Position numbers and translations under genes: made by a program. 64,000 nt of DNA, from assembly GCA_046351595.1 (NCBI GenBank), contig JAXLYE010000005.1, positions 788,735-852,734 on the forward strand, in the 5' to 3' direction. Source of the stretch: Polyangia bacterium (GTDB lineage Bacteria > Myxococcota_A > Polyangia > Palsa-1104 > JAEUJZ01). This document shows, one piece after another, positions 4,174 to 34,962 of this stretch; position 1 is the stretch's first letter; the number at the start of each line of letters is the position of its first letter. The notes under the pieces were generated by a model, which was not told the DNA's origin, made no database searches, and worked only from the letters and a program-made list of their open reading frames with translations.

Positions 4174-4464
4174 TTCCGCGCTTCATGTTCCGCTACGGAC
4201 CGCAGCTGCTCGGCGTGCCTCCGGATTGAGCTCGCCTCCGCTCCCTTCCTGCACGGAATCGCAGCGCGCGGACATTACCTCTGCGAGCGGAGGTCGCCGT
4301 CTGTCTCCTCTCTCTGGGGACGAGCGTCCGGATCACTGAGCCCCGCCTCCGTCTGCGCAGAGGCGCGCAGCGGCCCGGATTCCGGAGTCAACGTGCGCAG
4401 CCCGCATGGCCCGCATGGTAGGATGAGGGCGGTCAGCCTGTGCGCTTGACCTGCGTGCCTGCCG

Positions 4465-5184
4465 ATGAGCCGATCCCGGTCGCAGCCCTCCAAGTCTCTG
4501 CCGGAGAGAGATCCGCGCGCGCTCATCGGCAGCACCATCGCCGGTCGCTACCAGGTCGAGGCGCTGCTGGGCAAGGGCGGCATGGGCAGCGTCTACCGGG
4601 TGCAGCACCTGGCTATCCGCAAGCCCATGGCGCTGAAGGTGCTGTCCGACAAGATGATGAGCGTGCCGGCCGTGGTCGCGCGCTTCGAGCGCGAGGCGAC
4701 GCTGGCCGCGCACCTGGACCACCCGCACGTCGTCTCCGCCTCGGACTTCGGCCGCACCGAGGACGGCCGCTTCTACCTCGTCCTGGAGTACGTAGAGGGC
4801 AAGGAGCTGCGCGACCTACTCGACGAGCTGGGCGGCCCGCTGCCACCGGTGCGCGCTTTCTACATCGCGCGCCAGATCGCCAGCGCCCTGACCCGCGCCC
4901 AGTCGCTGGGCATCGTGCACCGCGATCTGAAGCCCGAGAACGTCATGCTCGTGCGGCGGGATGGGCATGAGGACTACGTGAAGGTGCTCGACTTCGGGCT
5001 GGCGCTGCTGTCGCGGCACCTCGAGTCGACCGGCGGGGATGAGCACACGGTCGAGACCGCGCCCAAGATCACGCAGGTCGGTGAGATCTTCGGGACGCCG
5101 GCGTACATGGCGCCGGAGCAGACCATCGGCGCGGCGACCGACATCCGCACGGATCTGTATGCGCTCGGCGTGGTGCTGTACGAG
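4465..5184 (+). pseudogene. Ser/Thr protein kinase, N-terminal about 240 aa (through subdomain IX). The gene is interrupted after ...DLYALGVVLYE.
   Basis: Motifs GKGGMGSVYRV, ALK, HRDLKPEN, DFG, GTPAYMAPE and DLYALGVVLYE are present. The protein-like sequence stops abruptly at about 5185 and is replaced by unrelated, locally AT-richer sequence. The matching C-terminal lobe is at 28308..29064. Confidence 0.7.
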
Positions 5185-5199
5185 GAGCACTCCTCCGTC

Positions 5200-6125
5200 G
5201 AGAACTGCCGAAAATCATTCCCCAAGGCGATGCAACGGCTTGCAGGTCAAGGGCGTAGGGTTGGGGAACGGCTGTCCAGCGCGAGAGTGGTGTGAGAGGC
5301 TGGTCGAGGTGCAGCGGCTTGCCCGCGCTCTGCCAGACCGCTTCCTGCAGATCCCCAAGCAGCTACTCCAGCTTCCCATCAAAGACCGTGTTCAGCCGCT
5401 TCCATCCGCCGTGCACCTGGAACTGCCCCTCGTCGAGAGAGGCTCGGCCGACCAGGCACTCGCTCTGCAGCTTCTTCGCGATGCGATCCAGCCACTGCTT
5501 CTGGATGTCCGTGAAGCGACCACGCGAAAGGAGCCGCTGCACCGCGCGCCGCACCCGCTCCTCATACGGGACCAGCGGCTCGCCGCGGGCCTGCTGGCGG
5601 ATGTGGCCGAGGATCGACGCGACGATGTCCTGGTTCTTGGCCAGGCGCCAGGCCGTGCGCAGCTGCGCCTCGGTGTAGCCGTCCTCCGCGAGCTTGAGCT
5701 GCAGCTCGCGCAGCGCCTGTCGTGTGAGCTCGCGCGGCCGCTGCGTGATGACCCAAGCGCGGGCAGCTCGTTCATGGGGTCGCGCAGGTAGCGGCCGAAG
5801 GACTCCAGGTAGTCGTCCGGCCGGCTGCTGCCGCCCTTGCCGTAGCCGCGCTCGACGGCGACGATCTGATCCTCGCGCTCGGACAGGACGACCGCGCCGC
5901 GATCCCTGTGGTCGGCAGATCCACGGTCACCGCGATCGTCGGCTCGCGCTCGTTGCGGGAGCGGCGCAGGTGCTGACCCGGCCGATCACCGAGCCCGTGA
6001 TCTTCGCGACCGTGTCATCCGTGCCATCGGGATAGCGCGTCGCCAGCGAGCGCTTGAGCTGCGCGACGACACAGCGCGCGTGCTCGTCGTTCACGCAGAA
6101 CACCAGCGTCTTGCCCGGCAGCGCC
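5200..6125 (-). pseudogene. hsdR: Type I restriction enzyme R subunit (HsdR) remnant: C-terminal helicase motif region plus EcoEI_R_C-like tail. It carries frameshifts and an in-frame TAG.
   Basis: Minus-strand translation gives KTLVFCVNDEHA...KITGSV...RNEREPTIAVTVDLPTTGI... (helicase motifs V/VI), but only when the reading frame is switched several times. The tail reads ...RFTDIQKQWLDRIAKKLQSE...FQVHGGWKRLNTVFDGKLE(TAG)ELLGDLQEAVW. The N-terminal roughly 700 aa are absent. Confidence 0.6.
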
Positions 6126-6750
6126 GGATCAAGTGACCGGCCAGGCAGCCGCGCAGGTCGTCATGAAAGACGTGCTCGGCCAGCGCCCCAGTCTCGGCCA
6201 GCAGCCGGTCGGTGCGGGCCAGGAACCCGGAGTTGGGCGACGCGGCGGCGAGATCTCGGTTCATGAGCTGCGCGCCGGCGGTGGCCATGCGGCTCCAGGC
6301 GGCGTCGCGCGTGACCTCGTTGAAGGTGCCCGATGCGTCGGTGACCACGAACACCTCGAACCCCTCGGCCAGCGCCGACAGGGTCGGGAAGGCCACGCAG
6401 ACCTCGGTCACGACGCCGGCGATCACGAGCTGCTTCTTCCCCGTGGCCTTGACCGCGCGCACAAAGTCCTCGTTGTCCCAGGCGTTGATCTGGCCGGGGC
6501 GCGCAATGAAGGGAGCGTTCGGGAAGATCTGCTTGAGCTCCGGCACGAGCGGCCCGTTCGGACCGTCCTCGAAGCTCGTGGTCAGGATGGTCGGCAGCTC
6601 GAAGTACCGGGCCAGATCGGCCAGCGCGAGCACGTTGTTCTTGAACCGGTCGGGATCGAAGTCGCGCACCAGCGACAGCAGCCCGGCCTGGTGATCGACC
6701 AGCAGGACGGCGGCGTTGTTCTTATCGAGGCGGGTGTAGGGCTTGCTCAT
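6091..6750 (-). CDS. Isochorismatase-family hydrolase (YcaC-like).
   Basis: MSKPYTRLDKNNAAVLLVDHQ...VIAGVVTEVCVAFPT...FVVTDASGT is the cysteine hydrolase fold signature. An AGGAGAG RBS is present. It is divergent from the LysR gene. The exact 3' end is uncertain because it runs into the hsdR remnant. Confidence 0.8.
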   Translation of the reverse strand: MSKPYTRLDKNNAAVLLVDHQAGLLSLVRDFDPDRFKNNVLALADLARYFELPTILTTSFEDGPNGPLVPELKQIFPNAPFIARPGQINAWDNEDFVRAVKATGKKQLVIAGVVTEVCVAFPTLSALAEGFEVFVVTDASGTFNEVTRDAAWSRMATAGAQLMNRDLAAASPNSGFLARTDRLLAETGALAEHVFHDDLRGCLAGHLIRRCRARRWCSA

Positions 6751-6765
6751 GTCTCTCTCCTGTCT

Positions 6766-6814
6766 TGGGTGGGTCGGGTCCGGGTTCGGGTCCGGGTTCG
6801 GGTTCGGGTCCGAG
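6766..6814. repeat. Hexanucleotide tandem repeat (GGGTYC)n, about 8 units, in the divergent promoter between the isochorismatase and LysR genes.
   Basis: gggtcgggtccgggttcgggtccgggttcgggttcgggtccg is read directly. Confidence 0.6.
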
Positions 6815-6925
6815 GTTGCGCAGGCTCCGAGGAGCTCGACAAGCAGAGAGTACATATGGGACGCTGGGCGCAATAGGTCCAAAAAGTGGCTCTCATCGTC
6901 CTACTGATAGGACAATGAAGCCGTC

Positions 6926-7831
6926 ATGCAGGACCTCAACGATCTCTACTTCTTCGTCCAGGTCGTGGATCACGGCGGGTTTGCGCCGGCCGGCCGCGCG
7001 CTCGGCGTGCCCAAGTCCAAGCTGAGCCGGCGCCTGCTGCTCCTGGAGGAGCGCCTCGGCGTGCGCCTCGTCCAGCGCTCGACCCGCCGCTTCGCGGTGA
7101 CCGAGCTCGGGCGGACCTACTACGGCCACTGCAAGGCCATGCTGGTCGAGGCCGAGGCCGCGCAGGAGGCGATCGATCGGACGCGCACGGATCCCTGCGG
7201 CATCGTGCGGGTGACCTGCCCGGTCGCGCTCCTGGACACCCGCGTCGGCGAGATGCTGGCCGCGTTCATGGCCCAGAACCCGCGCGTCGAGGTGCACCTG
7301 CAGGCCACCAACCGCCGCGTCGATGTCGTCAGCGAGGCGGTGGACGTGGCGATCCGGGTGCGGCCGCCGCCGCTCGAAGACAGCGAGCTTTTGACGCGGG
7401 TGCTGGCCGATCGAGGGCAGTGCCTGGTCGCCAGCCCCGGCCTGCTCGCGTCCGCGCAGGCGCCGCGTGTGCCGACCGACCTGCGCCGCTTCCCCAGCCT
7501 GGCCCTGGGCGCTCCCGAGAACGAGCACGCCTGGCACCTGCTCGGACCCGACGGCGCGCAGGCCGTGATTCCGCATAGGCCGCGCCTCGTCACGCGCGGC
7601 ATGTTCGCGCTGCGCGCCGCGGCGCTCGCGGGCGTCGGGGTGGTGCAGCTGCCGACGATGATGGTCGGTGATCTGCTGGCCCGCGGCCAGCTCGTGCGCC
7701 TGCTGCCGGGCTGGGCGCCGCAGCGCGAGATCGTCCACGCGGTGTTCGCGACGCGCCGCGGCCTGCTGCCCTCGGTGCGGGCCCTGCTCGACTTCCTCGC
7801 CGAGCGGTTCCGCGAGCTGCAGGAGGACTGA
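6926..7831 (+). CDS. LysR-family transcriptional regulator.
   Basis: N-terminal HTH (LNDLYFFVQVVDHGGFAPAGRALGVPKSKLSRRLLLLEERLGVRL) plus a LysR substrate-binding domain. It has the classic divergent arrangement with a neighbouring enzyme gene. Confidence 0.85.
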   Translation: MQDLNDLYFFVQVVDHGGFAPAGRALGVPKSKLSRRLLLLEERLGVRLVQRSTRRFAVTELGRTYYGHCKAMLVEAEAAQEAIDRTRTDPCGIVRVTCPVALLDTRVGEMLAAFMAQNPRVEVHLQATNRRVDVVSEAVDVAIRVRPPPLEDSELLTRVLADRGQCLVASPGLLASAQAPRVPTDLRRFPSLALGAPENEHAWHLLGPDGAQAVIPHRPRLVTRGMFALRAAALAGVGVVQLPTMMVGDLLARGQLVRLLPGWAPQREIVHAVFATRRGLLPSVRALLDFLAERFRELQED

Positions 7832-7883
7832 TCACGCTGCCCGGCACACCGCGACCGCACGGGTCCGTTCGAGAGGAGCCGCG

Positions 7884-8465
7884 CTACTTCTTCGCCCGCA
7901 CCCGGAGCTGCTCGACCAGGCCGAGGCGGTACCAGCCTTTTTGCGCCTGTCCCTCGACGCCGCGCACCAGATAGTGAATGAGCTCGCCGCTCCAGCCGCC
8001 GTCCTTGCCCCGGCGCAGCGCGATGCTCAGCGTCTGCTCGGCGCAGGCGCGCTTGACCGAGACGTCGCCGGGGCACTCGGTGCCGAGCTTGTCGTCGGCG
8101 CAGGTCGGACACAGCGGCGCCGGATCGGTGAGGCGCCCCTGGCCGATCAGCAGGTCCGCCTCGTCGGTGGATAAGAGCTCCAGCTCGAAGGGGATGCGGC
8201 CGCCGGCGGGCACCACGAGGTAGTAGCGGCCCTGGCGCAGCTCCACCGTGCACGGCCGCGGCTTGTAGCTGCCCAGGCCGCACAGGTACGGGCCGACCGG
8301 CATCCGCTGGCCGGGCGAGTCCTTCGTGCCGTTCTCGTACCGGCCCGCCCGCGCGGCACCGCCGGGGGCGAGCACGAGACAGCCGAGCAGACCGAGGGAT
8401 GCACACAGAGCGCGACGGACGGTGCGGGCCACAGGACCTCCTTGGGGAGCGCGGATCGGGCGCAT
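7884..8465 (-). CDS. Secreted cysteine-rich hypothetical protein.
   Basis: An N-terminal signal-peptide-like segment (RRALCASLGLLGCLVLAPGGAARA) is followed by a Cys-rich mature part. No recognisable family. The start codon is uncertain. Confidence 0.45.
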   Translation of the reverse strand: MRPIRAPQGGPVARTVRRALCASLGLLGCLVLAPGGAARAGRYENGTKDSPGQRMPVGPYLCGLGSYKPRPCTVELRQGRYYLVVPAGGRIPFELELLSTDEADLLIGQGRLTDPAPLCPTCADDKLGTECPGDVSVKRACAEQTLSIALRRGKDGGWSGELIHYLVRGVEGQAQKGWYRLGLVEQLRVRAKK

Positions 8466-8703
8466 CAGACAAGGTTCCCGCAGGATCGGCGGGACTGGCT
8501 CGCCTTATCGCAGGACCGCCCACCGCCTCGCCGCTGGGGCTGCGACCCCGCCTGCCCGATCCTGGGCCGCAGGATCCAGCTGAGCGCATGTATCCTACGA
8601 GATCACTGTCGAAAAAACTCGCCATCTAAAAAGGTCGGCTTTTGAAGTAGAACTTGGGAAGTGGGTGGGTCGGCGCGAGGCAGCACGCAAGGGAAGCGAC
8701 GGG

Positions 8704-10302
8704 ATGACTGTGTCCAATCCGATTGAAGCGAGCAGAGAGTTCTTGCGGGAGTATGTTGCTGAGACAGACCCCGACGAGCTGGTCAATGCGCTTGAGGCCG
8801 GCGTCATGGTGAACGCCGGCCCCTTCTTGCAAGCCCTCAAGAGCGTGGAGCACCTGCTCGCCCACCCGCCTCCGGGGGACACGCTGGTCCAGCTGGTGAC
8901 CGTGGATGCCGGCATCCGGCTGGAGGACCCGTGCGGCGAGAGCGCTCGGAGCTGGCTGGAGTGGCTGGCGCGGCAGATCCGGATAGAGCTGGAGGAGAAC
9001 CTTTTGCCCTTCCAGCCCATGCGCGCGCAGCTTGTGCGGAGCGCGCCGCCGGCCGATGAGCGGTTTCCGCACGATCTGCGGCTCTACCCCACGGACGAGC
9101 CCTGGCCGGAGTGTTGGAATCCGGTCTGGGGAAAGAACGTTTTTTATTCCGCGTTCAGGAAGGAATGGGACGGCCGCACCTGCCCCAGCTGCAGAACCCC
9201 CACGGTGCAATGTACCGCTGAGCGCAAGGACAGCAGCGAGACCGACCGCTCCCGCGCGTATCCCGAGCGCGTCGCCGTCTACCGATGCACCCGCTGTCGC
9301 TGCGGCTGGACAGAGCGCACCGAAGGGAGCGGCGCGCCCGGGAAGGCACAGCCCCAGGCACCGCTCCTCCTTTTTGCACAGGGCGGCTCGGTGCTCCTGC
9401 GGTCTGCCAGCGGCACGGTGATCGGCCTGGACTTCACCACGCTCGCGCCGCGTTATGTGTGCGCCGGGCGGCTCATCGGCGTCAGCGGATCCGGCCGGAT
9501 CCTGGCAACGGAAAAGGAGCCCGGTGTCTTTGCGTTCTGGGACAGCGCAAGCGGACAGGAAAGAGCGCTGGGCCAGGCCGACATCGCGGACTTCCCTTTC
9601 GAGGTCCGCTACCGCGTGAGCTTGAGGCAGACAGCGGGCGGGCGGTACGAAGGGTTCTGGACTGACATCACCGGTCAGGACGCTCCTTTGCTCTTTTCGA
9701 TCCGCCCGTCCGGGACGACCCGGAGCGAGCAGATCGACAACTGGACCGTGGTGTCCGCGCGTCGCTGGCTGGCCCTTGCGTGGTCCTGGCAGGACGCAGA
9801 CTTCGATGGCTCGTTCGGCAGCTACTACTCCCCTTCCGGAGACACCCCGGCCCGTGTCACCCTGAAGGTTTCTCGCTTCCACTCCGTCCCTCCGATGTAC
9901 TTTTCGCGCCAGCACGACTGGCTGGTCACGGGTGAGCAGACCGGCTTCAATGTATATGTGGCATCGACCGGACAGCCCGTCGGCACCGGTGCCGGAAAGT
10001 TCGATCTGCTGGATGGCGGCGGAGACCTCGTGGCGTTTCACCCCCAGCAGCGGTCCTGGCTGGCCGTCAACCGCCGTCCCTATCTGACCAGGGACCGAGA
10101 CAAACAGGGATTCCGCCTGCTCGACATCGCCGTCCCCACGAGCGAGGCCCGCGAGCTGCGGAGCTTCCCTGAGCCCCGGCCGGTCGCGTACCTGGCCTTC
10201 CACCCAAGCGGTGAGTGGATCGCTGCCTTGCTCGATGACGGGACGATCCACATCTGGGAGACGGCGACCGGGCACAGGCGCTCCGATGCGGCCGCGGAGT
10301 AG
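8704..10302 (+). CDS. Hypothetical protein with a zinc-ribbon (CPSC...CTRCRC) and a C-terminal WD40-like beta-propeller region.
   Basis: Diverse amino-acid composition with Trp/Phe/Tyr. The last repeat reads DGTIHIWE. The fully overlapping antisense 624-aa ORF is Arg/Gly-rich junk. The start is either ATG 8704 or the upstream 8665. Confidence 0.55.
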   Translation: MTVSNPIEASREFLREYVAETDPDELVNALEAGVMVNAGPFLQALKSVEHLLAHPPPGDTLVQLVTVDAGIRLEDPCGESARSWLEWLARQIRIELEENLLPFQPMRAQLVRSAPPADERFPHDLRLYPTDEPWPECWNPVWGKNVFYSAFRKEWDGRTCPSCRTPTVQCTAERKDSSETDRSRAYPERVAVYRCTRCRCGWTERTEGSGAPGKAQPQAPLLLFAQGGSVLLRSASGTVIGLDFTTLAPRYVCAGRLIGVSGSGRILATEKEPGVFAFWDSASGQERALGQADIADFPFEVRYRVSLRQTAGGRYEGFWTDITGQDAPLLFSIRPSGTTRSEQIDNWTVVSARRWLALAWSWQDADFDGSFGSYYSPSGDTPARVTLKVSRFHSVPPMYFSRQHDWLVTGEQTGFNVYVASTGQPVGTGAGKFDLLDGGGDLVAFHPQQRSWLAVNRRPYLTRDRDKQGFRLLDIAVPTSEARELRSFPEPRPVAYLAFHPSGEWIAALLDDGTIHIWETATGHRRSDAAAE

Positions 10303-10376
10303 CAGCAGATCGTCGGTGGCGCGTGTCTGCTCGGCTGCTTGGAAGGAGCTCCGCGACGTTCCTGTCTTCGTGGCCG

Positions 10377-10739
10377 TTACGGAGCCTCCGGCGCCGTTGC
10401 GGCATCGAGCTCGCTGCCGGCGGTCTCGGGGAGCCACCACAGGATGAGCAGGAGCGCGACGGCCGGGAATGCGGCCGACAGAAGGAGCGTGCGACGCCAC
10501 CCCAGCGCCGGGACCAGCTCGGCCACCAGGAGCGGCGCCAGCACGAAGCCCAGGCGACCGAGCAGGCTGTTGGCCCAGCCGAAGCAGTCGCCGCGCAGCG
10601 CGGTCGGGAAGCTCTCGGCGGTCCAGGTGCTGAGCAGCGTCACCGCCGCGGCCATCCCCCCGATCAGCAGCAGCATCGCGCCCGGCAGCAGCGGCTCCGG
10701 AACCTGCGTATAGGCGCCGAGCACGCCGAGCGCCGTCAA
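10377..10739 (-). pseudogene. MFS transporter, C-terminal about 120 aa fragment only.
   Basis: ESFPTALRG..FGWANSLLGRLGFVLAPLLV is the typical last MFS helices. An in-frame stop lies immediately upstream and no hydrophobic continuation exists in any frame. It abuts the mcrB upstream region. Confidence 0.55.
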
Positions 10740-10815
10740 CCGGCCGCCCGTGCTATATCGCCTTGGCCGCCAGCAGTCGGCTCGGAATCACGGACGCGCA
10801 AAGAAGGAGTGAGCC

Positions 10816-12645
10816 TTGGCGAACCAGGACCTAGCCAGCGAGCGGGCGGCAACGGAGCGTCGGTACTTTGCCGGCGGCATCTACTGGGACAAGGAGCGCA
10901 AGGTCGAGGAGTTCCTTGAAGGCTCCTACTGGCAGCTCGGTCACAAGCCAGACACCACGGATCCGGCCGGGCAGCGCGCCTGGGGCGTATTTCAGCAGAT
11001 CCGGGCGGGCGACTGGCTCGCCATCAAAGGGCTCGGCGGGCGCTACGATCTGAAGGTCTACCTCGTCGGCGAGGTGAAGCGGATCGACCGCAAGAGCGGG
11101 CGGCTCGAGCTAAAGAAGCTGACGGTGCCGCTTTATCACGGAAAGGCGCCTTCTTCCGGCGCGGGCGGCCGGCACTGGTTCGATGCCCTGCTCGAGATCA
11201 AGGAGCCGGCAGCGATCGCTGCGATCTTCCAGCAGGCAGCACCGCGCAATGCAGCGCCTTCCGGAGCGCCGCACATTGAGCCGTGGAGCCCGCAGAACCT
11301 GATCCTGTTCGGCCCTCCGGGCACGGGCAAGACACACACGCTACAGCGGATCCTGGACCAACATTTCGGGCCGATCGAGAGCCTCAGCAGCGACGATGAA
11401 CGGCTGCAGGAGCACGCACGGTCCCTGACGTGGTTTGAAGCGGTTGCGCTGGCCCTGAACGACATCGCAGAAGCAGCCACGGTACCCAGGCTGAGCGCTC
11501 ACCCGCTAATCCAGGCCAAGAGCGCGGTCAGCCAGCGGAGCCACCTCGGCCCTGCGATGTGGGCGATCTTGCAGGCCCATACCGTTCAAGGCTCCACGAC
11601 CGTCAACTACTCCCATCGTACGGACCCGCTGATCTTCGACAAGGGAGAGGACGGAGCGTGGCGGATCGTCGAGGCGCTGCCCGACTACCTGCACGCCCGG
11701 GCAGAAGAGATCTTCGGCACCGAAGATCGGACGCCGCCGAAGCCGCGCTCTGCGTTCGTGACCTTCCACCAGTCCTTCTCGTACGAAGACTTCGTCGAGG
11801 GCATCCGTCCGAACCTGGAGGAGGATCAAGAAGGAGGAGCCGACAGGCTGGCCTACCTCTTGGTCGAGGGCGTCTTATTGGACGCAGCCAGGAGCGCGCT
11901 CGCGCTGGCCGAGTATCCCGGCACCGTGCACGAGTTCTGCACGAAGCAGACAAGGGAAGAGCGCCATGCGCAGACCGCCGGCAAGCCGCAGTACGCCCTC
12001 GCCATCGACGAGATCAACCGCGGCAACGTGTCGCGCATCTTCGGCGAGCTGATCTCGCTGATCGAGCCGAGCAAGCGGCTGGGCGAGCACAACGAGCTGA
12101 TCGTGACGCTGCCGTACTCGCGGCTGAAGTTCGGCGTGCCGGCGAACCTGTGCTTCCTGGGCACCATGAACACCGCGGACCGCAGCATCGAGTCGCTGGA
12201 CACGGCGCTGCGGCGGCGCTTCCGGTTCAAGGAGATGCGGCCGGACTACGAGCTGCTCGACGGCGTAGTCGTCGACGGAGTTGACGTGAAGCGGCTGCTC
12301 GAGCGGATCAACGCGCGCCTGGCCGTGCTGCGCGATCGCGACCACCAGATCGGGCACGCCTACTTCTGGCCGCTGAAGCAGACGCCGACCCTGCCGCTCT
12401 TGCGCGAGATCTTCCAGAACGAGATCATCCCGCTCCTGCAGGAGTACTTCTACAGCGACTACAACAAGCTGGCGCTGGTGCTCGGGCTGGACTTTTTCAG
12501 GAAGACCGAGCCGGCGGTCTTCCCAAGCGGCGTCGACAGCGAGCTATTCGAGGATCTGAAGGATGTGCGGCGGTACGAGCTGCACCCGGCCAGCGAGCTG
12601 GCGGCGCTGCCTCCTGACTCCTTCCGCAAGATCTACGAAGGCTGA
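10816..12645 (+). CDS. mcrB: McrB-family GTPase (AAA+ subunit of a 5-methylcytosine-dependent restriction system) with a divergent N-terminal DNA-recognition domain.
   Basis: LILFGPPGTGKT (Walker A), FHQSFSYEDFVEG, IDEINRGNVSRIFGELISLIE, NLCFLGTMNTADRS and RRRF are McrB hallmarks. The first roughly 150 aa (GDWLAIKG...LKVYLVGEVKRI) may be EVE/PUA-like rather than the canonical McrB-N. Confidence 0.85.
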   Translation: MANQDLASERAATERRYFAGGIYWDKERKVEEFLEGSYWQLGHKPDTTDPAGQRAWGVFQQIRAGDWLAIKGLGGRYDLKVYLVGEVKRIDRKSGRLELKKLTVPLYHGKAPSSGAGGRHWFDALLEIKEPAAIAAIFQQAAPRNAAPSGAPHIEPWSPQNLILFGPPGTGKTHTLQRILDQHFGPIESLSSDDERLQEHARSLTWFEAVALALNDIAEAATVPRLSAHPLIQAKSAVSQRSHLGPAMWAILQAHTVQGSTTVNYSHRTDPLIFDKGEDGAWRIVEALPDYLHARAEEIFGTEDRTPPKPRSAFVTFHQSFSYEDFVEGIRPNLEEDQEGGADRLAYLLVEGVLLDAARSALALAEYPGTVHEFCTKQTREERHAQTAGKPQYALAIDEINRGNVSRIFGELISLIEPSKRLGEHNELIVTLPYSRLKFGVPANLCFLGTMNTADRSIESLDTALRRRFRFKEMRPDYELLDGVVVDGVDVKRLLERINARLAVLRDRDHQIGHAYFWPLKQTPTLPLLREIFQNEIIPLLQEYFYSDYNKLALVLGLDFFRKTEPAVFPSGVDSELFEDLKDVRRYELHPASELAALPPDSFRKIYEG

Positions 12646-12651
12646 GTAGCC

Positions 12652-13947
12652 GTGCGCGGCGCAGTCCAAGTCTTTGAGCACCAGCGGCTCGCGATCGGAG
12701 CGCGCTGCCGCACCAGCCTTCTCGGCACGGAGATCGAGTTCACGCGCGCGCACTTCGAGGCGCTGACCCGCTACGCGGAGCGGCACACCTCGCCGCCGTT
12801 TTTCATCCGCCACCGCGCGATCGTCTTCAAGCAGTACGTCGGCGTGGTCCAGGTCGGCGGCCTGACGATCGAGATCCTGCCGAAGGTCGATCGGGAGCCC
12901 GCGGGCGCGGATCCGCAGCCCAAGCTGTGGCGGAATCTTCTGCTGCAGATGCTGCGGCTCTGTCCGCAGCTCGGCCTGCGCGAGCTGCGGCGGGCCCAGC
13001 TCGGGATCGAGCCGGAGGATCTGCTGGACCTGTACGTCGCGCGCTTCCTTGTGGAGGTGGAGCGCCTGCTGCACGAAGGGCTCGCGCGCAGCTACCGGAC
13101 GGTCGAGCAGGACCGCACCGCGTTCTGCGGCCGGCTGCTCGTCGTCGAGAACCTGCGCAGGAACCTGGTCCACGCCGAGCGCGTCTACGTCGCCACGCAC
13201 GAGCTGGGACCCGATCGACTAGAGAACCGCATCCTATGGCAGGCCTTGCGGGTGCTGAGCGGGCTGCGCCTCCGCAGCGCGCTCGCCGAGCGTGCGCAGC
13301 AGCTGCTGCGCGAGTTTCCTCCGGTCGGCACACGGGCCGTGTCGAGCGAGGACTTCGCGCGGATCGCGCCCGGCCGCCACACCGACCGCTACGAGGAAGC
13401 GCTGGCGCTGGCGCGCCTGATCCTCTTGCACTACTGCCCGGCGCCCAAGGCCGGAGCCGCGGACACGCTGGCGCTGCTCGTCGACATGAACCGGCTGTTC
13501 CAGGGCTTCGTGCTGGCGGTGCTGCGGCGGGTCGCTCCTCCAGGCTGGTCGGTCGACGGCCGCGCGCACGCGGACTTCTGGCCCGACGGAGCGGACGAGC
13601 CCAAGCGGCTGCTCCCGGACATCGTGCTGCGGCGTGATGGGAAGCCGGCGCTGATCGTCGACACCAAGTGGAAGCTGTCGGACGGGCAGTGGCCGTCGGA
13701 CGCGGATCTGCGCCAGGTCTTTGCGTACGGCGAGTACTTCGGCGCTCCGCGCGTGGCGCTCTTGTATCCGGCGCGCGGCCAGCAGCCTCCGGGGCGCACC
13801 GGCCGGTTCCTGAGCCGCGCGCTGCACGGCGAGATCCACCACCTGGACCTCTTCGTCGCGGGCGCTGGGCCGGAGCGGCTCGACGCCAGCCGGGTCGGTG
13901 AGCGGCTGTGGCGGCAGCTCGTCCCGGGGACGCTGACCGATCGGTAG
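12652..13947 (+). CDS. mcrC: McrC-family PD-(D/E)xK endonuclease subunit.
   Basis: It lies 7 bp downstream of mcrB. LPDIVLRRDGKPALIVDTKWK is the D...D-x-K catalytic motif. Length 431 aa. The start is GTG according to the ORF track. Confidence 0.8.
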   Translation: MRGAVQVFEHQRLAIGARCRTSLLGTEIEFTRAHFEALTRYAERHTSPPFFIRHRAIVFKQYVGVVQVGGLTIEILPKVDREPAGADPQPKLWRNLLLQMLRLCPQLGLRELRRAQLGIEPEDLLDLYVARFLVEVERLLHEGLARSYRTVEQDRTAFCGRLLVVENLRRNLVHAERVYVATHELGPDRLENRILWQALRVLSGLRLRSALAERAQQLLREFPPVGTRAVSSEDFARIAPGRHTDRYEEALALARLILLHYCPAPKAGAADTLALLVDMNRLFQGFVLAVLRRVAPPGWSVDGRAHADFWPDGADEPKRLLPDIVLRRDGKPALIVDTKWKLSDGQWPSDADLRQVFAYGEYFGAPRVALLYPARGQQPPGRTGRFLSRALHGEIHHLDLFVAGAGPERLDASRVGERLWRQLVPGTLTDR

Positions 13948-14013
13948 CGGGCCGCGGGCGCATCCGCGGCCGACCTCCGAAGGATCCGACGGCGCATCTC
14001 GCGCCGTTGACGC

Positions 14014-14772
14014 GTGGGCGCGTTGGACGAAGCAGCTTCCCACACGGCTCAAGGCGAGCCGCGGTTATCCTTGAGCACGATGAGCGTGTCAGCCGACTCG
14101 ATCCTGGCGGCGATTCGCCAGGCTGCCGCCGCGGGTTACTCCGAGCGCCTCGATCTGCTCGCGAGGGCGGCGCAGCTCACCCGCTCGTTCTGCCGCAAGC
14201 TGACCCGGGTCGAGGCCAGGCGCGCACGCGCGGTCCTCGTCGCCGTGCTCGAGATGCCGCTGGTCGGCAAGTGCGCGCTGCAGTGCTGCAACGCCTCGTA
14301 CGTACACGCGGTCCAGCTCGAGGCCAAGAGCGACGTGCTGGCCGCGTATGCCCACCTCGATGCGGACGCGGTCATCGAGCTCTCCCCGGGGCTCCTGGCG
14401 CGGCTCGCGGCTCCAGAGTCACGGCGCATCGCGCTCGCGGCCGTAAAACTGATCGGACGCTCGCCGGAGGGACGTCGCGTGCATGCCGCGCTGCTGCTGG
14501 GCGCCCTGGTGCACAGCCGCTGGCAGGTCGTCGAGTCCGCGGCGTGCAGCCTCGGCAGGCTGGGCCTGGATGCACCTGACCGGGCGCGAGGTGCTCTGGC
14601 GCAGGCGCTGCGACACGAGCAGTGGCAGGTTAGGCGCGCCGCGGCCAAGGCGCTGGGCGCGATCACAGGAGGGAGGCACGCCGCGCTCGATCGCGCCGCA
14701 GAGCGCGATACACACACCGCGGTCCGCTATGCGGCCTGCAAGGCGATCGGCAAGAAGCTACCGTGGCCGTGA
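14014..14772 (+). CDS. HEAT-repeat (PBS-lyase-like) protein.
   Basis: Three tandem HEAT-like units (HSRWQVVESAACSLGRLG, HEQWQVRRAAAKALGAI, DTHTAVRYAACKAIGK). It lies between mcrC and the CHAT gene. Confidence 0.6.
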   Translation: MGALDEAASHTAQGEPRLSLSTMSVSADSILAAIRQAAAAGYSERLDLLARAAQLTRSFCRKLTRVEARRARAVLVAVLEMPLVGKCALQCCNASYVHAVQLEAKSDVLAAYAHLDADAVIELSPGLLARLAAPESRRIALAAVKLIGRSPEGRRVHAALLLGALVHSRWQVVESAACSLGRLGLDAPDRARGALAQALRHEQWQVRRAAAKALGAITGGRHAALDRAAERDTHTAVRYAACKAIGKKLPWP

Positions 14773-15335
14773 ATCAAGGCAGCTCAGAGTGTCTTGGCTT
14801 TATCGGCGCACCAGCCGCTTGCGCCGCACCACCTGCGGTCTGCTTGATCCCTGCAGCAGGCCGGGCGCTCCCGCCTGCCCGCGGGGCAGCGCCGCAGCAG
14901 ACGGCCCTTGATCGGAGCGCTCATACTCCGCGAACGGATGGATGTAGCCGACGCGGAGGAGACGCCGCTCGAGCTCGGGGTCATCATTAGGACTCCGAGT
15001 GGTTAGGTTCCTTGTTTAGAGCCATGATTGCTCGCCTACGGCATTCACCGCCCTTGGCATTCAGGCTGGAGCGCCGGAGGCCAGAGCAGCCTTCTGTGAC
15101 TGTCGGACCTTCTCGGAGGCAACGTCGGCATCTAGCCGTAGCCGGCGACGGCATCCGTGCTCTGCGCGCCTGGCGGCAGGTCGCGCTCACGCGTATCTTG
15201 TGGCGGCATCGCCGGCAGGGACCTGGCCAAGTCTGCCGGCCGGCGCTGCCGGGTCGGGAGGGACCAAGGGCGATCGCCTCGGCATCCAGGTTGCTTCGTG
15301 ACCCCTGCAGCCGAACGAGCAAGGGAGCCACGAGC

Positions 15336-17948
15336 GTGCAGCACAGAGGCCGGGTCTTCAGATGGGTTTGGGTCGCTGCGCTCGCTGCTGCGCTGTGGCT
15401 GTCCTCACTCCTCTTCAAGGGGGTTCCTGAGCGCCCCGCTTCGCCGCCCAACCCGGTGCGGCAGGCGCTGCGGCTCTGCAATGATCCGATTCTGCGGAAC
15501 CAGCCCGCGCAGAGCGCCGCCGCATGCGAGCTGGTGGCAGCGGCGGAGCCGGACGAGCCGAGACAGCCTGGCGCCTACGTGCGCGCGCTCACCGTGCTCG
15601 GCCACCTGCACGATGTGCACATGGCGCTCGCCACCTACGAGCGCGGGGACTTTGTGCTGCTCCGGCGGAGCCAGCGGAAGCCGCTGACCAAGACGGCCCC
15701 GTCTCCCCCCGAAGAGCATCTCCTCGGGCTGGCGCGCGCCCTCTCGGCGCTGCAGGCGTCGCCGGGACCGGAAGGCGGCGGTCCTGATCTGTACCAGGCC
15801 GTTCTCCAGCAGCTCGGAGAGAGCCCGAGCGCGACCCAGCTGAGCAACCTGTCGCTGTTCTTTCTGCAGGACCCGCGCTCCTTCGAGCTCTCCCGCGTGC
15901 TCGCGCTGCAGGCCTTCGATCGCGGACTGCGTACCGGCGGGTCTCGGAGCCGGATGGAGGCGCGGATGCTGGCGAACCTGGGGCTCATCCTTGCTATGGG
16001 AGGGTACGAGGACAGGGCGCTTCGGCAGTACGAACTGGCGCTGAAGATCTATCGTAGCTGGCCCGAAGATCCCGACGTACCGATCCTCCTGAACAACATG
16101 GCCCTGCTCCAGGCGAGGTGTGCGGATCCCGATGGGGCCGACACGCTCTATCGCCAGGCGAGCGCCCTGGTCGAGAAGCAGGATATCGAGGGGCGAACGC
16201 TCCGCTCGCTGATCCTGATGAACCAGGCCGCCCAGGCTGTCGCGCGCGGGCGGCTTGTGGATGCGGTGCCGGTGCTGGAGCAGGTCGCGTCGCTCCAGGA
16301 GTCGCTCCTTCGTGCGTCACGCAGCGAGCAGCGCATCCAGGCCGTGCTGATTCAACAGGAGTCCGTTCAGCAGTTCATCTACGGGCTGCTGCTGCGGCCT
16401 GGCCCCGTGCCGGAGCGCCTGGCGCAGCTCGCCCTCCGCCTCAGCCTCACCTTCAAGGGAAGTACGGCGGAGGCCAGCGCGCGCCGCGCCGCACCGGACG
16501 ACCCCGAGCTGCGCGCGCTACAGACCGCGTGGGACAGCCTGCACGCCGAGCGCGAGCACCTCTTGTTCAGCGGTGCCAGAGAGTCGGACGCAGCGCAGCG
16601 ATCCGCGCGCCGGCAGGAGCTCGATCTGCGCATCCAGAAGCTTGAGCACGAGCTCTCGGTGGCGTCCAGAACGCTTGCACCTGACTGGCCGCAGCTCGAG
16701 GACATCACGGAGTCTGTCGCCGTCAAGCTCCCTGCGGGCAGCGCGCTGCTGGAGGTGATCGTTGTGGTTCCCTATGTCCTTGACGAAGAGGCCAGGGGCG
16801 CATCTGCCGGGCGCTGGGGCCAGGCTCACTATGTGGCGCTCCTCTTGACCCCGGACCGAGACGTTACGGTCCACATGCTCGGAACCGAGGAGGAGATCGA
16901 TCGCCGGGTCGCAGAGCTCCTGCTGCGGCTCCAGGATCCCAGCAGTGATCCCCTGCCGGCCGCGCATGCGCTGCACCAGCAGGTGATGCAGCCGCTGATG
17001 CAGCGCCTGCACAGAGTGTCCCGGATCTACCTGTCGCTCGACGGCGCGCTCAACGCGGTTCCCATTGCCGCGCTCCATGACGGAGCGCAGTACCTGCTGC
17101 ACCGCTTCAAGCTCAGCTACCTGTCGTCTGGCCGTGAGCTCCTGCGCACTCCGGATGCCACGTCGAAGGGGCCGGCTCTTATCCTGGCCGATCCCGTGCC
17201 GCTCATGCCAGCTGCCGCAGACGGTGCAGCGGGCTCGATCTACTCGCAGCTCGGTGGGCTGCCGCGGCTTCCTGGAGCTCGCCGAGAGGCGGAGCGGCTG
17301 GCAGGGCTCTTATCCAGGGCCACGGTCCTGCTGGGAGCGGAGGCCTCCGAGTCCGCGCTCAAGCGGGCCGGCGCGCCGCCCATCTTGCACATCGCCACGC
17401 ACGGCGCCTTCTTGGAGGGAGCGCTGCGGATCCAGGCGTCCGCGCGCGGGCTCCGCCCGCTGACCGGGCCGCTGCAGGGACAGGATGTGGACCGGGTGCT
17501 GGGCCGCGGAGCCGAAGAGCCGCTGATCCGCTCGGCGCTCGTGCTGTCTCGCGGCCTGCCTGACAAGACGCCCGTCGATGAGGATGGGCTGGTCACGGCC
17601 GAGGAGGTACGCGCTCTGAACCTGCGCGGCACCGAGCTTGTAGTGCTCGCGACCTGTGAGAGCGGACGCGGCACAGCGAGCGCGGGTCAGGGCATCTACG
17701 GACTCCGGCGCGCCTTCTTCGCAGCGGGCGCCCAGACCCTGGTCGTCAGCCTGTGGCGGATCGCTGACGGAGAGACCAGTGAATTGATGGCTCGGTACTA
17801 CCAGAAGCTGGTCAAGGAGCGGAGGCCGCGAGCCAGAGCGCTGCAAGAAGCCGAGCAGGAGCTTCAGCGCAGGAGGCCGCACCCGTACTACTGGGCGCCG
17901 TTCGTCGCCATCGGTCAGGACGCACCGCTCAGCCTGAGCAGCCGTTGA
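15336..17948 (+). CDS. TPR-repeat protein with a C-terminal CHAT (caspase-like) protease domain.
   Basis: The C-terminus carries the CHAT hallmarks LHIATHG, ATCESG and YYWAPFV. The N-terminal roughly 500 aa is TPR-like. A GTG at 15336 preceded by an AAGGGAG RBS is the most plausible start. The ORF is open from 15012. Confidence 0.8.
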   Translation: MQHRGRVFRWVWVAALAAALWLSSLLFKGVPERPASPPNPVRQALRLCNDPILRNQPAQSAAACELVAAAEPDEPRQPGAYVRALTVLGHLHDVHMALATYERGDFVLLRRSQRKPLTKTAPSPPEEHLLGLARALSALQASPGPEGGGPDLYQAVLQQLGESPSATQLSNLSLFFLQDPRSFELSRVLALQAFDRGLRTGGSRSRMEARMLANLGLILAMGGYEDRALRQYELALKIYRSWPEDPDVPILLNNMALLQARCADPDGADTLYRQASALVEKQDIEGRTLRSLILMNQAAQAVARGRLVDAVPVLEQVASLQESLLRASRSEQRIQAVLIQQESVQQFIYGLLLRPGPVPERLAQLALRLSLTFKGSTAEASARRAAPDDPELRALQTAWDSLHAEREHLLFSGARESDAAQRSARRQELDLRIQKLEHELSVASRTLAPDWPQLEDITESVAVKLPAGSALLEVIVVVPYVLDEEARGASAGRWGQAHYVALLLTPDRDVTVHMLGTEEEIDRRVAELLLRLQDPSSDPLPAAHALHQQVMQPLMQRLHRVSRIYLSLDGALNAVPIAALHDGAQYLLHRFKLSYLSSGRELLRTPDATSKGPALILADPVPLMPAAADGAAGSIYSQLGGLPRLPGARREAERLAGLLSRATVLLGAEASESALKRAGAPPILHIATHGAFLEGALRIQASARGLRPLTGPLQGQDVDRVLGRGAEEPLIRSALVLSRGLPDKTPVDEDGLVTAEEVRALNLRGTELVVLATCESGRGTASAGQGIYGLRRAFFAAGAQTLVVSLWRIADGETSELMARYYQKLVKERRPRARALQEAEQELQRRRPHPYYWAPFVAIGQDAPLSLSSR

Positions 17949-18133
17949 GGAAGTACGGCTGCCGATGGTAGCAGTTCAGCCCACACGAACTCCTGTCCAG
18001 GACCGCTCCCTGATCCCCTCCTGATCCCCGCCTGGGACCGATTCTTCGGAGGGGATTTGTGAGCTTGTGAAAGGCTTTACTGTTTGGGTAAGATCAAGAC
18101 AGACAAAGCCGACTCGGGCAGTAACGGGGCGAG

Positions 18134-18958
18134 ATGAAGAAGTGGATCTTGCTGAGCATTTTGTTTGGAGCAGTCGTTCCAAGAAAAGCTGCGGCCGAGC
18201 CTCCTCCGCAGCTTGCCGTGCGGGACAGGACCGCGCTTCGAGGTTGGGCACATATCAAGTTCGGCCAAGATATCGGATACACGATCACGAACGGCGTGGA
18301 TACCATCGCATTCTTACGTGTGCCGCCCCAGTTCCGGAAGGATATCGAGTCGATGCAGAGCCCTGATGGCCGCAGCTACCCGAGGGTCATCTTGAGCTGT
18401 GCCAACGAGATGTACGCGGTGATTGGCGATTTCGGGGGCAGGCAAGACGCGAAGACATTGGCCCCCATGACTGCTTTCGGTTGTCCACGCAGCGATGCCG
18501 AGCACTTCGAGTTTCCCGACGAAGAAGACTTTCAGGAACTGGTTTCTGTGCGAGAGCCTAGGCGCTTCCTACATTGGGATGGTAACAAGAGTCGTCGAGG
18601 GCCGGTCGCGATGTATGCTTCAGACGAAGAGACCCTGGTCGTTCAAGCTGCACTCCCTGCAGCTGACCGTACTGAAGCGGGCATCCGCAAAAAGGTGCAA
18701 GCGCTGGTCTGTAGAGATGAGCAAAGCGAAGGCCTTCGGGTCGAGACCCGGAGCGGCGTCAGGCTTTTTATAGGACATGACGGTACGGAGGCAGTCGCCG
18801 CTCGGTTCCTCTCCTGTGAACGTGGCACGCTGTTCATCATCAGCAGAGTCGAGAAGGGCAGCCAGGAAAGAGCGGTCTCGAACGCGCTGCAAGTGATCTG
18901 TCGAGCGGGCAAGTCCCAGTCGCTCCGATCACTCGTCAAGCCAGCGCCAGGCACATGA
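18134..18958 (+). CDS. Secreted hypothetical protein, in a lower-GC patch.
   Basis: MKKWILLSILFGAVV is a signal peptide. There is no family match. Local GC is about 55% against about 70% background. Confidence 0.55.
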   Translation: MKKWILLSILFGAVVPRKAAAEPPPQLAVRDRTALRGWAHIKFGQDIGYTITNGVDTIAFLRVPPQFRKDIESMQSPDGRSYPRVILSCANEMYAVIGDFGGRQDAKTLAPMTAFGCPRSDAEHFEFPDEEDFQELVSVREPRRFLHWDGNKSRRGPVAMYASDEETLVVQAALPAADRTEAGIRKKVQALVCRDEQSEGLRVETRSGVRLFIGHDGTEAVAARFLSCERGTLFIISRVEKGSQERAVSNALQVICRAGKSQSLRSLVKPAPGT

Positions 18959-34706: not shown

Positions 34707-34962
34707 GGGAGCCGCACCATATCACCCGGCTGTGCCCACAGAGCAATCTCGGAGTCCGCGAGCGCGCTCCCGCGGCCGGACGGACTGCGGAGGGAGACGG
34801 TGATACACGGCTCGGCCGTGAATTTTAGGAGCAGCAAGCATACCGACAGGCGGGCTGCCGTGTCTTCGCTTGCCGCACGACGAATACGGTCCGTACGAGG
34901 TGCAGGTCCAGCCGGACTGCTGGACCGGGCAGAGACAGCGTTCGGAATCCCTCCGCGCGATC

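What the first reader, a model, noticed from the sequence alone, without database searches (positions are those of the whole stretch)
10377..17948. McrBC with a non-canonical N-terminal reader domain, inserted into an MFS gene and followed by HEAT and TPR-CHAT genes
McrB has the full GTPase motif set, but its first roughly 150 aa (YFAGGIYWDKERKVEEFL...GDWLAIKG...LKVYLVGEVKRIDRKSG) do not look like the E. coli McrB-N fold. They may be PUA-like (EVE/YTH-type), implying a different modified-base specificity. The 120-aa MFS C-terminal remnant directly upstream indicates that the cassette displaced the 5' part of a transporter gene. Downstream, a HEAT-repeat protein and a TPR-CHAT caspase-like protease follow in the same orientation. 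CHAT proteases act as effectors in some defence systems, so co-function is conceivable but unproven.
Basis: partly seen in the sequence, partly recalled or inferred. Interest (0 to 1): 0.55.

Follow-up and report, generated by a model that had tools for sequence, protein, structure and literature searches.

The report
McrBC restriction system with PUA-like reader
This is an ordinary two-gene McrBC restriction system whose DNA-reading domain belongs to a small, unannotated family that looks like EVE/YTH modified-base readers. The neighbouring HEAT and CHAT genes and the broken transporter gene are not part of it.

Summary
mcrB (10816-12645) and mcrC (12652-13947) form a complete NxxD-type Type IV restriction pair.

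McrB residues ~15-140 match no Pfam family, including E. coli MrcB_N, and no PDB sequence. An AlphaFold model (pLDDT 86) hits only PUA-like folds (EVE, YTH, ASCH, TgMcrB-N), with modest scores (TM 0.44-0.49). The profile finds only 312 clusters among 1.84 billion proteins, mostly McrB-like, some fused to KAP NTPases.

McrB also carries an unannotated ~125-aa insert after Walker A that weakly resembles a winged helix.

The other two interpretations fail. A ~93%-identical sister contig (L094) has an intact 412-aa MFS gene next to the same mcrBC locus. So the cassette did not insert into the MFS gene; the window lost ~1 kb later. The sister lost mcrB codons 18-540 in frame.

Synteny with the sister ends at 14979, and the CHAT gene is absent there. 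HEAT orthologues at 58-76% identity have no McrBC nearby. None of 80 CHAT-relative loci has McrB, McrC or HEAT, and none of seven distinct McrB-relative neighbourhoods has HEAT or CHAT. The CHAT protein has an N-terminal membrane segment.

Verdict: a new member of a known kind, of modest interest.

The parts
10377..10739 (-). 3' remnant (120 aa) of an MFS transporter gene. It is a neighbour, not part of the system.
   Evidence: MFS_1 and TIGR00895 C-terminal match. It is 98% identical at protein level to the C-terminus of the intact 412-aa MFS in sister contig L094.
10741..10756 (.). Deletion junction. About 1,042 bp present in L094 are missing here, replaced by ~15 unmatched bases. The missing DNA is 874 bp of MFS 5' coding sequence plus 168 bp of the MFS-mcrB spacer.
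   Evidence: blastn of the window against L094 and junction sequences. The MFS 5' half is not found anywhere in the window.
10816..12645 (+). mcrB, 609 aa: reader domain, AAA+ GTPase with an insert, and C-terminal region.
   Evidence: AAA_5 and NCBIfam McrB matches. PDB sequence matches to T. gammatolerans McrB (6.6e-53) and E. coli McrB (2e-29).
10858..11235 (+). McrB N-terminal reader domain (aa ~15-140), PUA-like fold.
   Evidence: AF2 model with pLDDT 86, core above 90. Top Foldseek PDB hits are all EVE/YTH/ASCH/TgMcrB-N. No Pfam or PDB sequence match. Invariant residues: F33 W39 D66 K71 G72 G74 L79 P112 W121.
11311..11334 (+). Walker A motif GPPGTGKT (aa 166-173).
11350..11730 (+). Insert of ~125 aa in the GTPase domain (aa ~179-305), between the Walker A helix and FHQSFSYEDF. 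Possibly winged-helix-like.
   Evidence: Absent from TgMcrB (alignment jumps from q178 to q300) and from homologues P0057 and P0067. AF2 model pLDDT 87. Foldseek hits are not significant (best E 0.78), but MarR, FoxP3, TrmBL2 and Cdt1 winged helices predominate.
12004..12027 (+). Walker B region IDEINRGN (aa 397-404).
12166..12186 (+). McrB GTPase signature MNTADRS (NxxD motif, aa 451-457).
   Evidence: The NxxD clade is defined in PMC11090510.
12652..13947 (+). mcrC, 431 aa (DUF2357 plus PD-(D/E)xK nuclease). It starts after a 6-bp gap from the mcrB stop.
   Evidence: PF10117 4e-56. PDB sequence match to TgMcrC, 3e-21.
13615..13674 (+). McrC nuclease motif PDIVL...VDTKWK (aa 322-341).
   Evidence: Aligns with TgMcrC PDYVV...LDAKYR.
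14080..14772 (+). HEAT-repeat protein (230 aa as annotated). A resident neighbour, not linked to McrBC.
   Evidence: HEAT_2 and HEAT matches. Orthologues at 58-76% identity lie in loci without McrBC or CHAT.
14979..14980 (.). End of synteny with sister contig L094. DNA to the right, including CHAT, differs between the two genomes.
15336..17948 (+). TPR-CHAT protein. It is 870 aa from GTG 15336; NCBI aa from 15054. It has an N-terminal hydrophobic segment and a His/Cys dyad. Not linked to McrBC.
   Evidence: CHAT 2.5e-68 and TPR_12. Start-site, ribosome-binding-site and GC3 analysis. Two gene calls. Segment WVWVAALAAALWLSSLLF, HIATHG and ATCESG. No close relatives, best 39% identity.

Best explanation

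Architecture (shown):
- McrB has an N-terminal ~125-aa domain with a PUA-like (EVE/YTH-like) fold.
- It has an AAA+ GTPase domain with Walker A, Walker B and NxxD motifs. This domain carries a ~125-aa, possibly winged-helix, insert after the Walker A helix.
- It has a C-terminal region homologous to that of T. gammatolerans and E. coli McrB.
- McrC supplies the DUF2357 activator and a PD-(D/E)xK nuclease with its motif intact.

Mechanism (inferred by homology with E. coli and T. gammatolerans McrBC):
- The N-domain recognises a modified base in foreign DNA, probably by flipping it into a pocket lined by the invariant aromatic residues.
- GTP-bound McrB forms hexamers, McrC stimulates GTP hydrolysis, and DNA is cleaved.
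- The modification recognised is unknown.

Neighbours and history (shown):
- The pair sits between an MFS transporter gene, divergently oriented, and a resident HEAT-repeat gene.
- In this genome a later ~1-kb deletion removed the 5' 70% of the MFS gene and most of the MFS-mcrB spacer.
- In a sister genome a different in-frame deletion removed mcrB codons 18-540.
- The HEAT gene and the TPR-CHAT gene, which encodes a membrane-anchored and probably extracytoplasmic protein, are unrelated neighbours.
For: - System identity: Pfam and NCBIfam matches and motifs. PDB sequence matches to TgMcrB (6.6e-53), EcMcrB (2e-29) and TgMcrC (3e-21), with catalytic motifs aligned. A 6-bp mcrB-mcrC gap.
- N-domain fold: AF2 model pLDDT 86.2, pTM 0.77. 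The top 22 Foldseek PDB hits are all PUA-like. They include EVE proteins 1wmm and 2p5d (E ~2e-4, probability 1.00), YTH domains, VcaM4I EVE-HNH, TgMcrB-N 6p0f and ASCH, plus one chain of the DrmAB complex.
- N-domain is modular. It is present in 90 of the other 119 listed homologues. It sits where other close GTPase homologues carry EVE, Mrr_N or other domains. It occurs alongside MrcB_N in P0177 and is fused to KAP NTPases in four proteins.
- Context of relatives: type I RM (hsdS), DISARM-like and MmeI-like neighbours. This matches the census in PMC11090510.
- No link to MFS, HEAT or CHAT: sister contig L094, HEAT orthologue loci and CHAT-relative loci.
Against: - Activity and specificity are untested.
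- The 1-kb deletion leaves only ~60 bp of native sequence upstream of mcrB, so expression is uncertain.
- No sigma-70-like promoter was found, although that scan is not calibrated for Myxococcota.
Confidence: 0.8

Rival explanations
1. McrBC, the HEAT protein and the TPR-CHAT protease form one composite defence system, with the CHAT protease as a second effector triggered by McrBC.
For: The genes share orientation and lie close together. The CHAT His/Cys dyad is intact. TPR-CHAT proteases act in type III-E CRISPR and in the Myxococcus DdvA sensor.
Against: - CHAT is absent from the 93%-identical sister locus, where synteny ends at 14979.
- None of 80 CHAT-relative loci has McrB, McrC or HEAT.
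- None of seven distinct McrB-relative neighbourhoods (12 contigs) has HEAT or CHAT.
- HEAT orthologues occur without McrBC.
- CHAT has an N-terminal membrane segment, which would place TPR-CHAT outside the cytoplasm.
- There is a 280-560 bp gap after HEAT.
- PADLOC has no hit for HEAT or CHAT.
Confidence: 0.04
2. The mcrBC pair in this genome is silent or decaying. The ~1-kb deletion removed its promoter, as part of ongoing loss of the system in this lineage.
For: The deletion leaves ~60 bp of native upstream DNA. The sister genome has inactivated mcrB by an internal deletion. No promoter-like site was found.
Against: Both ORFs are intact with all catalytic motifs, and third-position GC is high (0.86 and 0.91), giving no sign of decay. 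Sixty bp can hold a promoter. The promoter scan uses an E. coli consensus.
Confidence: 0.15
3. The N-terminal domain does not read modified bases. It is instead a general nucleic-acid-binding or protein-interaction module that resembles PUA-like folds only superficially.
For: TM-scores are below 0.5. There is no sequence-profile match to EVE, YTH or ASCH. The family is small, with 312 clusters.
Against: All of the top 22 structural hits are PUA-like chains, and three of them are restriction or defence proteins. The domain occupies the slot where homologues carry EVE, Mrr_N or MrcB_N readers. Several Trp, Tyr and Phe residues are invariant or nearly so.
Confidence: 0.2

Closest known systems
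Thermococcus gammatolerans McrBC (PDB 6UT3-6UT8; N-domain 6P0F)
   Same: It is the best PDB sequence match for both the GTPase (6.6e-53) and McrC (3e-21). Walker A, Walker B, NxxD and PD-(D/E)xK motifs align. Its N-domain (6P0F) is among the PUA-like structural hits to the window's N-domain (rank 19).
   Different: The N-domains share no detectable sequence similarity. TgMcrB lacks the ~125-aa insert after Walker A.
E. coli K-12 McrBC
   Same: The same two-gene system, with an NxxD GTPase and a PD-(D/E)xK McrC. The closest relatives of the window's pair sit in type I RM operons, as reported for the E. coli branch (PMC11090510).
   Different: The E. coli reader is MrcB_N/DUF3578 ('ADAM'). The window's McrB has no match to it, and it is not among the 50 listed structural hits. 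The E. coli protein has no GTPase insert.
EVE/YTH-fused McrB homologues (Bell et al. 2020, PMC7641849; Bell et al. 2024, PMC11090510)
   Same: A PUA-superfamily reader is fused N-terminally to an McrB GTPase. These papers describe this as the most frequent EVE fusion and note that GTPase-domain insertions are frequent.
   Different: It is not in the Pfam copy used here or in the precomputed Pfam lists for these proteins.
[quoted passage not shown]
   Same: This applies to the neighbouring CHAT gene only. It has a single N-terminal membrane segment followed by a large TPR-CHAT region with a His/Cys dyad, and it comes from a member of the Myxococcota.
   Different: No zinc-binding anti-sigma domain was recognised. 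No ECF sigma gene is adjacent. There is no PDB sequence match apart from TPR proteins.

Membership tests
McrBC Type IV restriction system (NxxD clade) | [quoted passage not shown] | tested here: met
   AAA_5 2.5e-13; GPPGTGKT 166-173; IDEINRGN 397-404
McrBC Type IV restriction system (NxxD clade) | McrB GTPase signature NxxD (MNTADRS) | tested here: met
   MNTADRS at 451-457 aligns with the TgMcrB motif
McrBC Type IV restriction system (NxxD clade) | Adjacent McrC with DUF2357 and an intact PD-(D/E)xK motif | tested here: met
   PF10117 4e-56; PDIVL...VDTKWK aligns with the TgMcrC motif; 6-bp intergenic gap
McrBC Type IV restriction system (NxxD clade) | GTP-dependent cleavage of modified DNA | not testable with these tools
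   Needs biochemistry or an in vivo restriction assay
E. coli-type McrB-N (MrcB_N / DUF3578 / ADAM) | Sequence match to PF12102 | tested here: not met
   No hit at E<=0.01 for the full protein or at E<=1 for the N-domain set. The model does detect P0177 at 5.8e-22.
E. coli-type McrB-N (MrcB_N / DUF3578 / ADAM) | Structural match to E. coli McrB-N | tested here: not met
   Not among the 50 Foldseek PDB hits listed, out of 555 with E<=10
PUA-like superfamily (EVE / YTH / ASCH) | Fold similarity to solved PUA-like domains | tested here: met
   Top 22 hits are all PUA-like; best E 1.6e-4, probability 1.00, TM 0.44/0.49. This is moderate strength and rests on one method only.
PUA-like superfamily (EVE / YTH / ASCH) | Sequence-profile match to EVE (PF01878) or YTH models, or to PDB sequences | tested here: not met
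   No such hits
PUA-like superfamily (EVE / YTH / ASCH) | Aromatic or basic pocket that binds a flipped modified base | tested here: inconclusive
   W39, W121, F33, D66 and K71 are invariant; W56 and Y17 nearly so. Their positions in three dimensions could not be inspected.
Defence-associated TPR-CHAT effector (Csx29/Craspase-like) | Conserved genomic association with a defence partner | tested here: not met
   None of 80 relative loci has McrB or McrC. The gene is absent from the sister locus. No PADLOC hit.
Defence-associated TPR-CHAT effector (Csx29/Craspase-like) | CHAT domain with a His-Cys dyad | tested here: met
   CHAT 2.5e-68; HIATHG and ATCESG
DdvA-like transmembrane anti-sigma factor with TPR-CHAT | Membrane segment followed by TPR-CHAT | tested here: met
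   Hydrophobic stretch of 18 aa preceded by HRGR.FR, then TPR and CHAT
DdvA-like transmembrane anti-sigma factor with TPR-CHAT | N-terminal zinc-binding anti-sigma domain and an adjacent ECF sigma gene | tested here: not met
   No Pfam domain in the N-terminal tail. The neighbours are HEAT and a 274-aa orphan.
Insertion of a cassette into the MFS gene | Both gene halves flank the insert, or a relative with the intact gene lacks the cassette | tested here: not met
   The 5' half is absent from the window. The relative with an intact MFS gene still has the mcrB start, the mcrB tail and mcrC next to it.

The most novel reading that the evidence does not exclude
The N-terminal domain represents a previously undescribed, sequence-orphan branch of PUA-like readers. 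It is a mobile module, found on McrB GTPases and KAP NTPases. It may recognise a modification other than the 5mC/5hmC read by E. coli McrB, for example 6mA or a hypermodified base. The unannotated winged-helix-like insert in the GTPase domain may add a second DNA contact.
Probability: 0.3. Interest if true: 0.45.

Novelty: new member of a known kind. Interest (0 to 1): 0.3.

Why it matters
McrB homologues with swapped reader domains are a natural toolbox of modified-base sensors. A small reader family with no annotation could yield a new specificity for epigenetic detection or for understanding phage DNA modifications. It occurs on McrB GTPases and KAP NTPases, sometimes alongside MrcB_N, EVE or Mrr_N.

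The case is also a useful caution. A truncated neighbouring gene and same-strand neighbours looked like an insertion and a composite system. One close relative showed both to be coincidental.

The reciprocal deletions in the two sister genomes illustrate how quickly Type IV systems and their surroundings erode.

Tried and rejected
- A profile search of the N-domain against PDB sequences and Pfam gave only chance-level hits, such as alcohol dehydrogenase GxGG-like stretches.
- Foldseek on the GTPase insert gave no significant hit, best E 0.78. The winged-helix reading is only a lead.
- I looked for the missing MFS 5' half elsewhere in the window by tblastn and found nothing.
- The first MFS relative found (L093) was not syntenic and was itself frameshifted.
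- I looked for tRNA genes and att-like repeats that could bound an island between 14980 and the integrase at 26991-28226. None were found.
- I considered that Pfam McrB_lid (PF28529) might be the GTPase insert. I rejected this because homologues lacking the insert (P0057, P0067) still carry that family.
- I considered a DdvA-like anti-sigma role for the CHAT protein. No anti-sigma domain or sigma gene was found.
Full report
**Observation.** The window has ~70% GC. Its McrB is identical to a protein named 'MAG: AAA family ATPase [Polyangia bacterium]' on an 855-kb contig. ORF listing, third-position GC and family scans confirm these genes:

| Gene | Coordinates | Size | Evidence |
|---|---|---|---|
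| MFS C-terminal remnant | 10377-10739 (-) | 120 aa | stop codons directly upstream in frame |
| mcrB | 10816-12645 (+) | 609 aa | AAA_5, NCBIfam McrB |
| mcrC | 12652-13947 (+) | 431 aa | PF10117, 4e-56 |
| HEAT-repeat gene | 14014 or 14080 to 14772 (+) | 252 or 230 aa | HEAT_2, HEAT |
| TPR-CHAT gene | ending at 17948 (+) | 870-978 aa | CHAT, 2.5e-68 |

**The McrBC core.**
- McrB carries Walker A (GPPGTGKT, 166-173), Walker B (IDEINRGN, 397-404) and the McrB signature MNTADRS (451-457, the NxxD form).
- Its best matches among solved structures are T. gammatolerans McrB (6.6e-53) and E. coli McrB (2e-29).
- McrC matches TgMcrC (3e-21), and its PDIVL...VDTKWK aligns with the Tg nuclease motif.
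- The two genes are separated by 6 bp.
- This is a complete canonical pair. By homology it should act as a GTP-driven, modification-dependent endonuclease. That step is inferred, not shown.

**The N-terminal domain.**
- Residues ~15-140 match no Pfam family, including MrcB_N/DUF3578, and no PDB sequence.
- The domain is conserved. 90 of the other 119 listed homologues contain it, usually at residues ~230-370 behind a further variable N-terminal module such as DUF8425.
- An alignment of 34 copies (A1) shows these invariant residues: F33, W39, D66, K71, G72, G74, L79, P112 and W121.
- AlphaFold2 on this alignment gave pLDDT 86.2, with the core above 90.
- In Foldseek against the PDB, the top 22 hits are all PUA-like chains. 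They are EVE proteins PH1033 and MJECL36 (E ~2e-4, probability 1.00, TM 0.44-0.49), several YTH domains, the EVE-HNH enzyme VcaM4I, Atu2648, the T. gammatolerans McrB N-domain, one chain of the DrmAB complex, ASCH and THYN1.
- E. coli McrB-N is not among the 50 listed hits.
The strength is moderate, because the TM-scores are modest and only one structure-comparison method was available.
- The profile finds only 312 clusters among 1.84 billion representatives.
- Besides McrB-like proteins, the domain is fused to KAP-family NTPases in four proteins. It is combined with MrcB_N in P0177, with EVE in P0115, and with Mrr_N in P0074, P0085 and P0093.
- Close GTPase homologues that lack it carry EVE or other domains in the same slot.
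- This behaviour fits an exchangeable specificity module.
- Bell et al. 2024 (PMC11090510) report that EVE-superfamily fusions to McrB are the commonest EVE fusions, and that insertions into the GTPase domain are frequent. The kind is therefore known.

- Between the Walker A helix and FHQSFSYEDF lies a ~125-aa segment (aa ~179-305). TgMcrB lacks it, as do some homologues such as P0057 and P0067.
- Its model is confident (pLDDT 86.9).
- Foldseek gives no significant match, best E 0.78. The hit list is mostly winged-helix DNA-binding domains such as MarR, TrmBL2, FoxP3 and Cdt1.
- I treat 'winged-helix-like second DNA contact' as a lead only.
- It is not Pfam McrB_lid, because insert-less homologues still carry that family.

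**'Inserted into an MFS gene'.** A search with the HEAT protein found orthologues, including one at 93% identity on a 19.7-kb contig, L094. By blastn, L094 is ~93% identical to and collinear with window 5216-14979.
- L094 has an intact 412-aa MFS gene. The window's remnant is 98% identical to its C-terminus.
- Downstream of a 228-bp spacer, L094 has the same mcrB start.
- L094 positions 4391-5432 are replaced in the window by ~15 unmatched bases at 10742-10755. The missing stretch is 874 bp of MFS 5' coding sequence plus 168 bp of spacer.
- Conversely, L094 lacks window ~10867-12434. Its 86-aa ORF is McrB residues 1-17 fused in frame to residues 541-609, followed by a 95%-identical McrC.
- The common ancestor therefore had an intact MFS gene divergently adjacent to an intact mcrBC. 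Each lineage then suffered a different deletion.
- The cassette did not displace the transporter's 5' end. That 5' half is nowhere in the window.

**HEAT and CHAT.**
- Collinearity with L094 stops at window 14979. L094 continues with a 2,318-aa gene on the other strand and has no CHAT gene.
- HEAT orthologues at 76%, 67%, 61% and 58% identity lie in loci with no McrB, McrC or CHAT.
- The CHAT protein has no close relative. The best is 39% identical.
- None of 80 relatives' loci, each with up to 10-kb flanks, contains McrB, McrC or the HEAT protein.
- The McrB relatives examined lie on 12 contigs forming seven distinct neighbourhoods. They sit next to hsdS of type I RM, DISARM-like MZB and PLD genes, an MmeI-like enzyme, or unrelated genes, and never next to HEAT or CHAT.
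- The likely CHAT start is GTG 15336, which has an AAGGGAG ribosome-binding site 8 nt upstream. NCBI uses 15054.
- Either start leaves a single hydrophobic segment (WVWVAALAAALWLSSLLF), preceded by basic residues, ahead of TPR-CHAT.
- This predicts an extracytoplasmic domain, as in the Myxococcus sensor DdvA (PMC11506125). However, no anti-sigma domain or sigma gene is present.
- PADLOC has no model matching HEAT or CHAT.

**Caveats.**
- The fold assignment needs an independent method.
- The ligand is unknown.
- The deletion leaves only ~60 bp of native DNA upstream of mcrB, so expression is uncertain.
- The right-hand boundary of the variable region is undefined. A tyrosine recombinase at 26991-28226 and a GC dip at 18-27 kb hint at an island. 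No tRNA gene or att repeat was found.

**Verdict.** This is a standard McrBC system with an unannotated PUA-like reader, so it is a new member of a known kind. The MFS-insertion and HEAT/CHAT ideas are not supported. Interest is modest at 0.3.

Noticed in passing
L094 5493-5753 (corresponds to window 10816-10866 joined to 12435-12645): The 93%-identical sister genome carries an in-frame internal deletion of mcrB (codons 18-540). This leaves an 86-aa stub and an orphan, 95%-identical mcrC. It looks like recent inactivation of the system in a close relative.
   Followed up: yes
window 26991-28226 (+), with 18000-27000: A tyrosine recombinase (Phage_integrase, 5e-13) lies at the far end of a lower-GC stretch (0.58-0.65 against ~0.70). 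That stretch begins just after the CHAT gene. Together with the synteny break at 14979, this hints at a variable or integrated region. No tRNA gene or flanking repeats were found.
   Followed up: partly
window 62073-63983 (-): The last 2 kb of the window drops to 46-50% GC. It encodes the C-terminal 636 aa of a TrlF-family AAA-like ATPase (NF045780, 7e-97; also related to the anti-phage Ppl model). The gene runs off the window, and the DNA is probably foreign.
   Followed up: partly
P0168, P0180, P0195, P0208, P0177 (proteins): The same N-terminal reader domain is fused to KAP-family P-loop NTPases in four proteins. In P0177 it sits between an E. coli-type MrcB_N domain and the McrB GTPase. 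It therefore behaves as a mobile module.
   Followed up: partly
L001-L005 (loci of P0002 and P0003): The closest McrB and McrC relatives (68-70% and ~77% identity) lie immediately downstream of a type I RM hsdS gene. The window's pair has no hsd genes nearby.
   Followed up: partly
window 6926-7831 compared with L094 1245-1539: Most of the LysR regulator gene present in the window is missing from the sister contig. This is a third indel difference within ~10 kb between the two genomes.
   Followed up: no
window 19819-21288 (+): A 489-aa protein contains several internally repeated TonB C-terminal-like units. These appear as DNA repeat family D1 at 20125, 20431 and 21079, and as TIGR01352 and myxo_SS_tail matches.
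   Followed up: no
window 15012-15336: The CHAT gene start is ambiguous. NCBI annotates 964 aa from TTG 15054. Another gene caller gives 870 aa from GTG 15336, which has the better ribosome-binding site and third-position GC support.
   Followed up: yes
window 34870-38547: This stretch has very high GC (0.77-0.79) and two long overlapping ORFs on opposite strands (1,030 and 1,194 aa). I did not determine which one is real.
   Followed up: no
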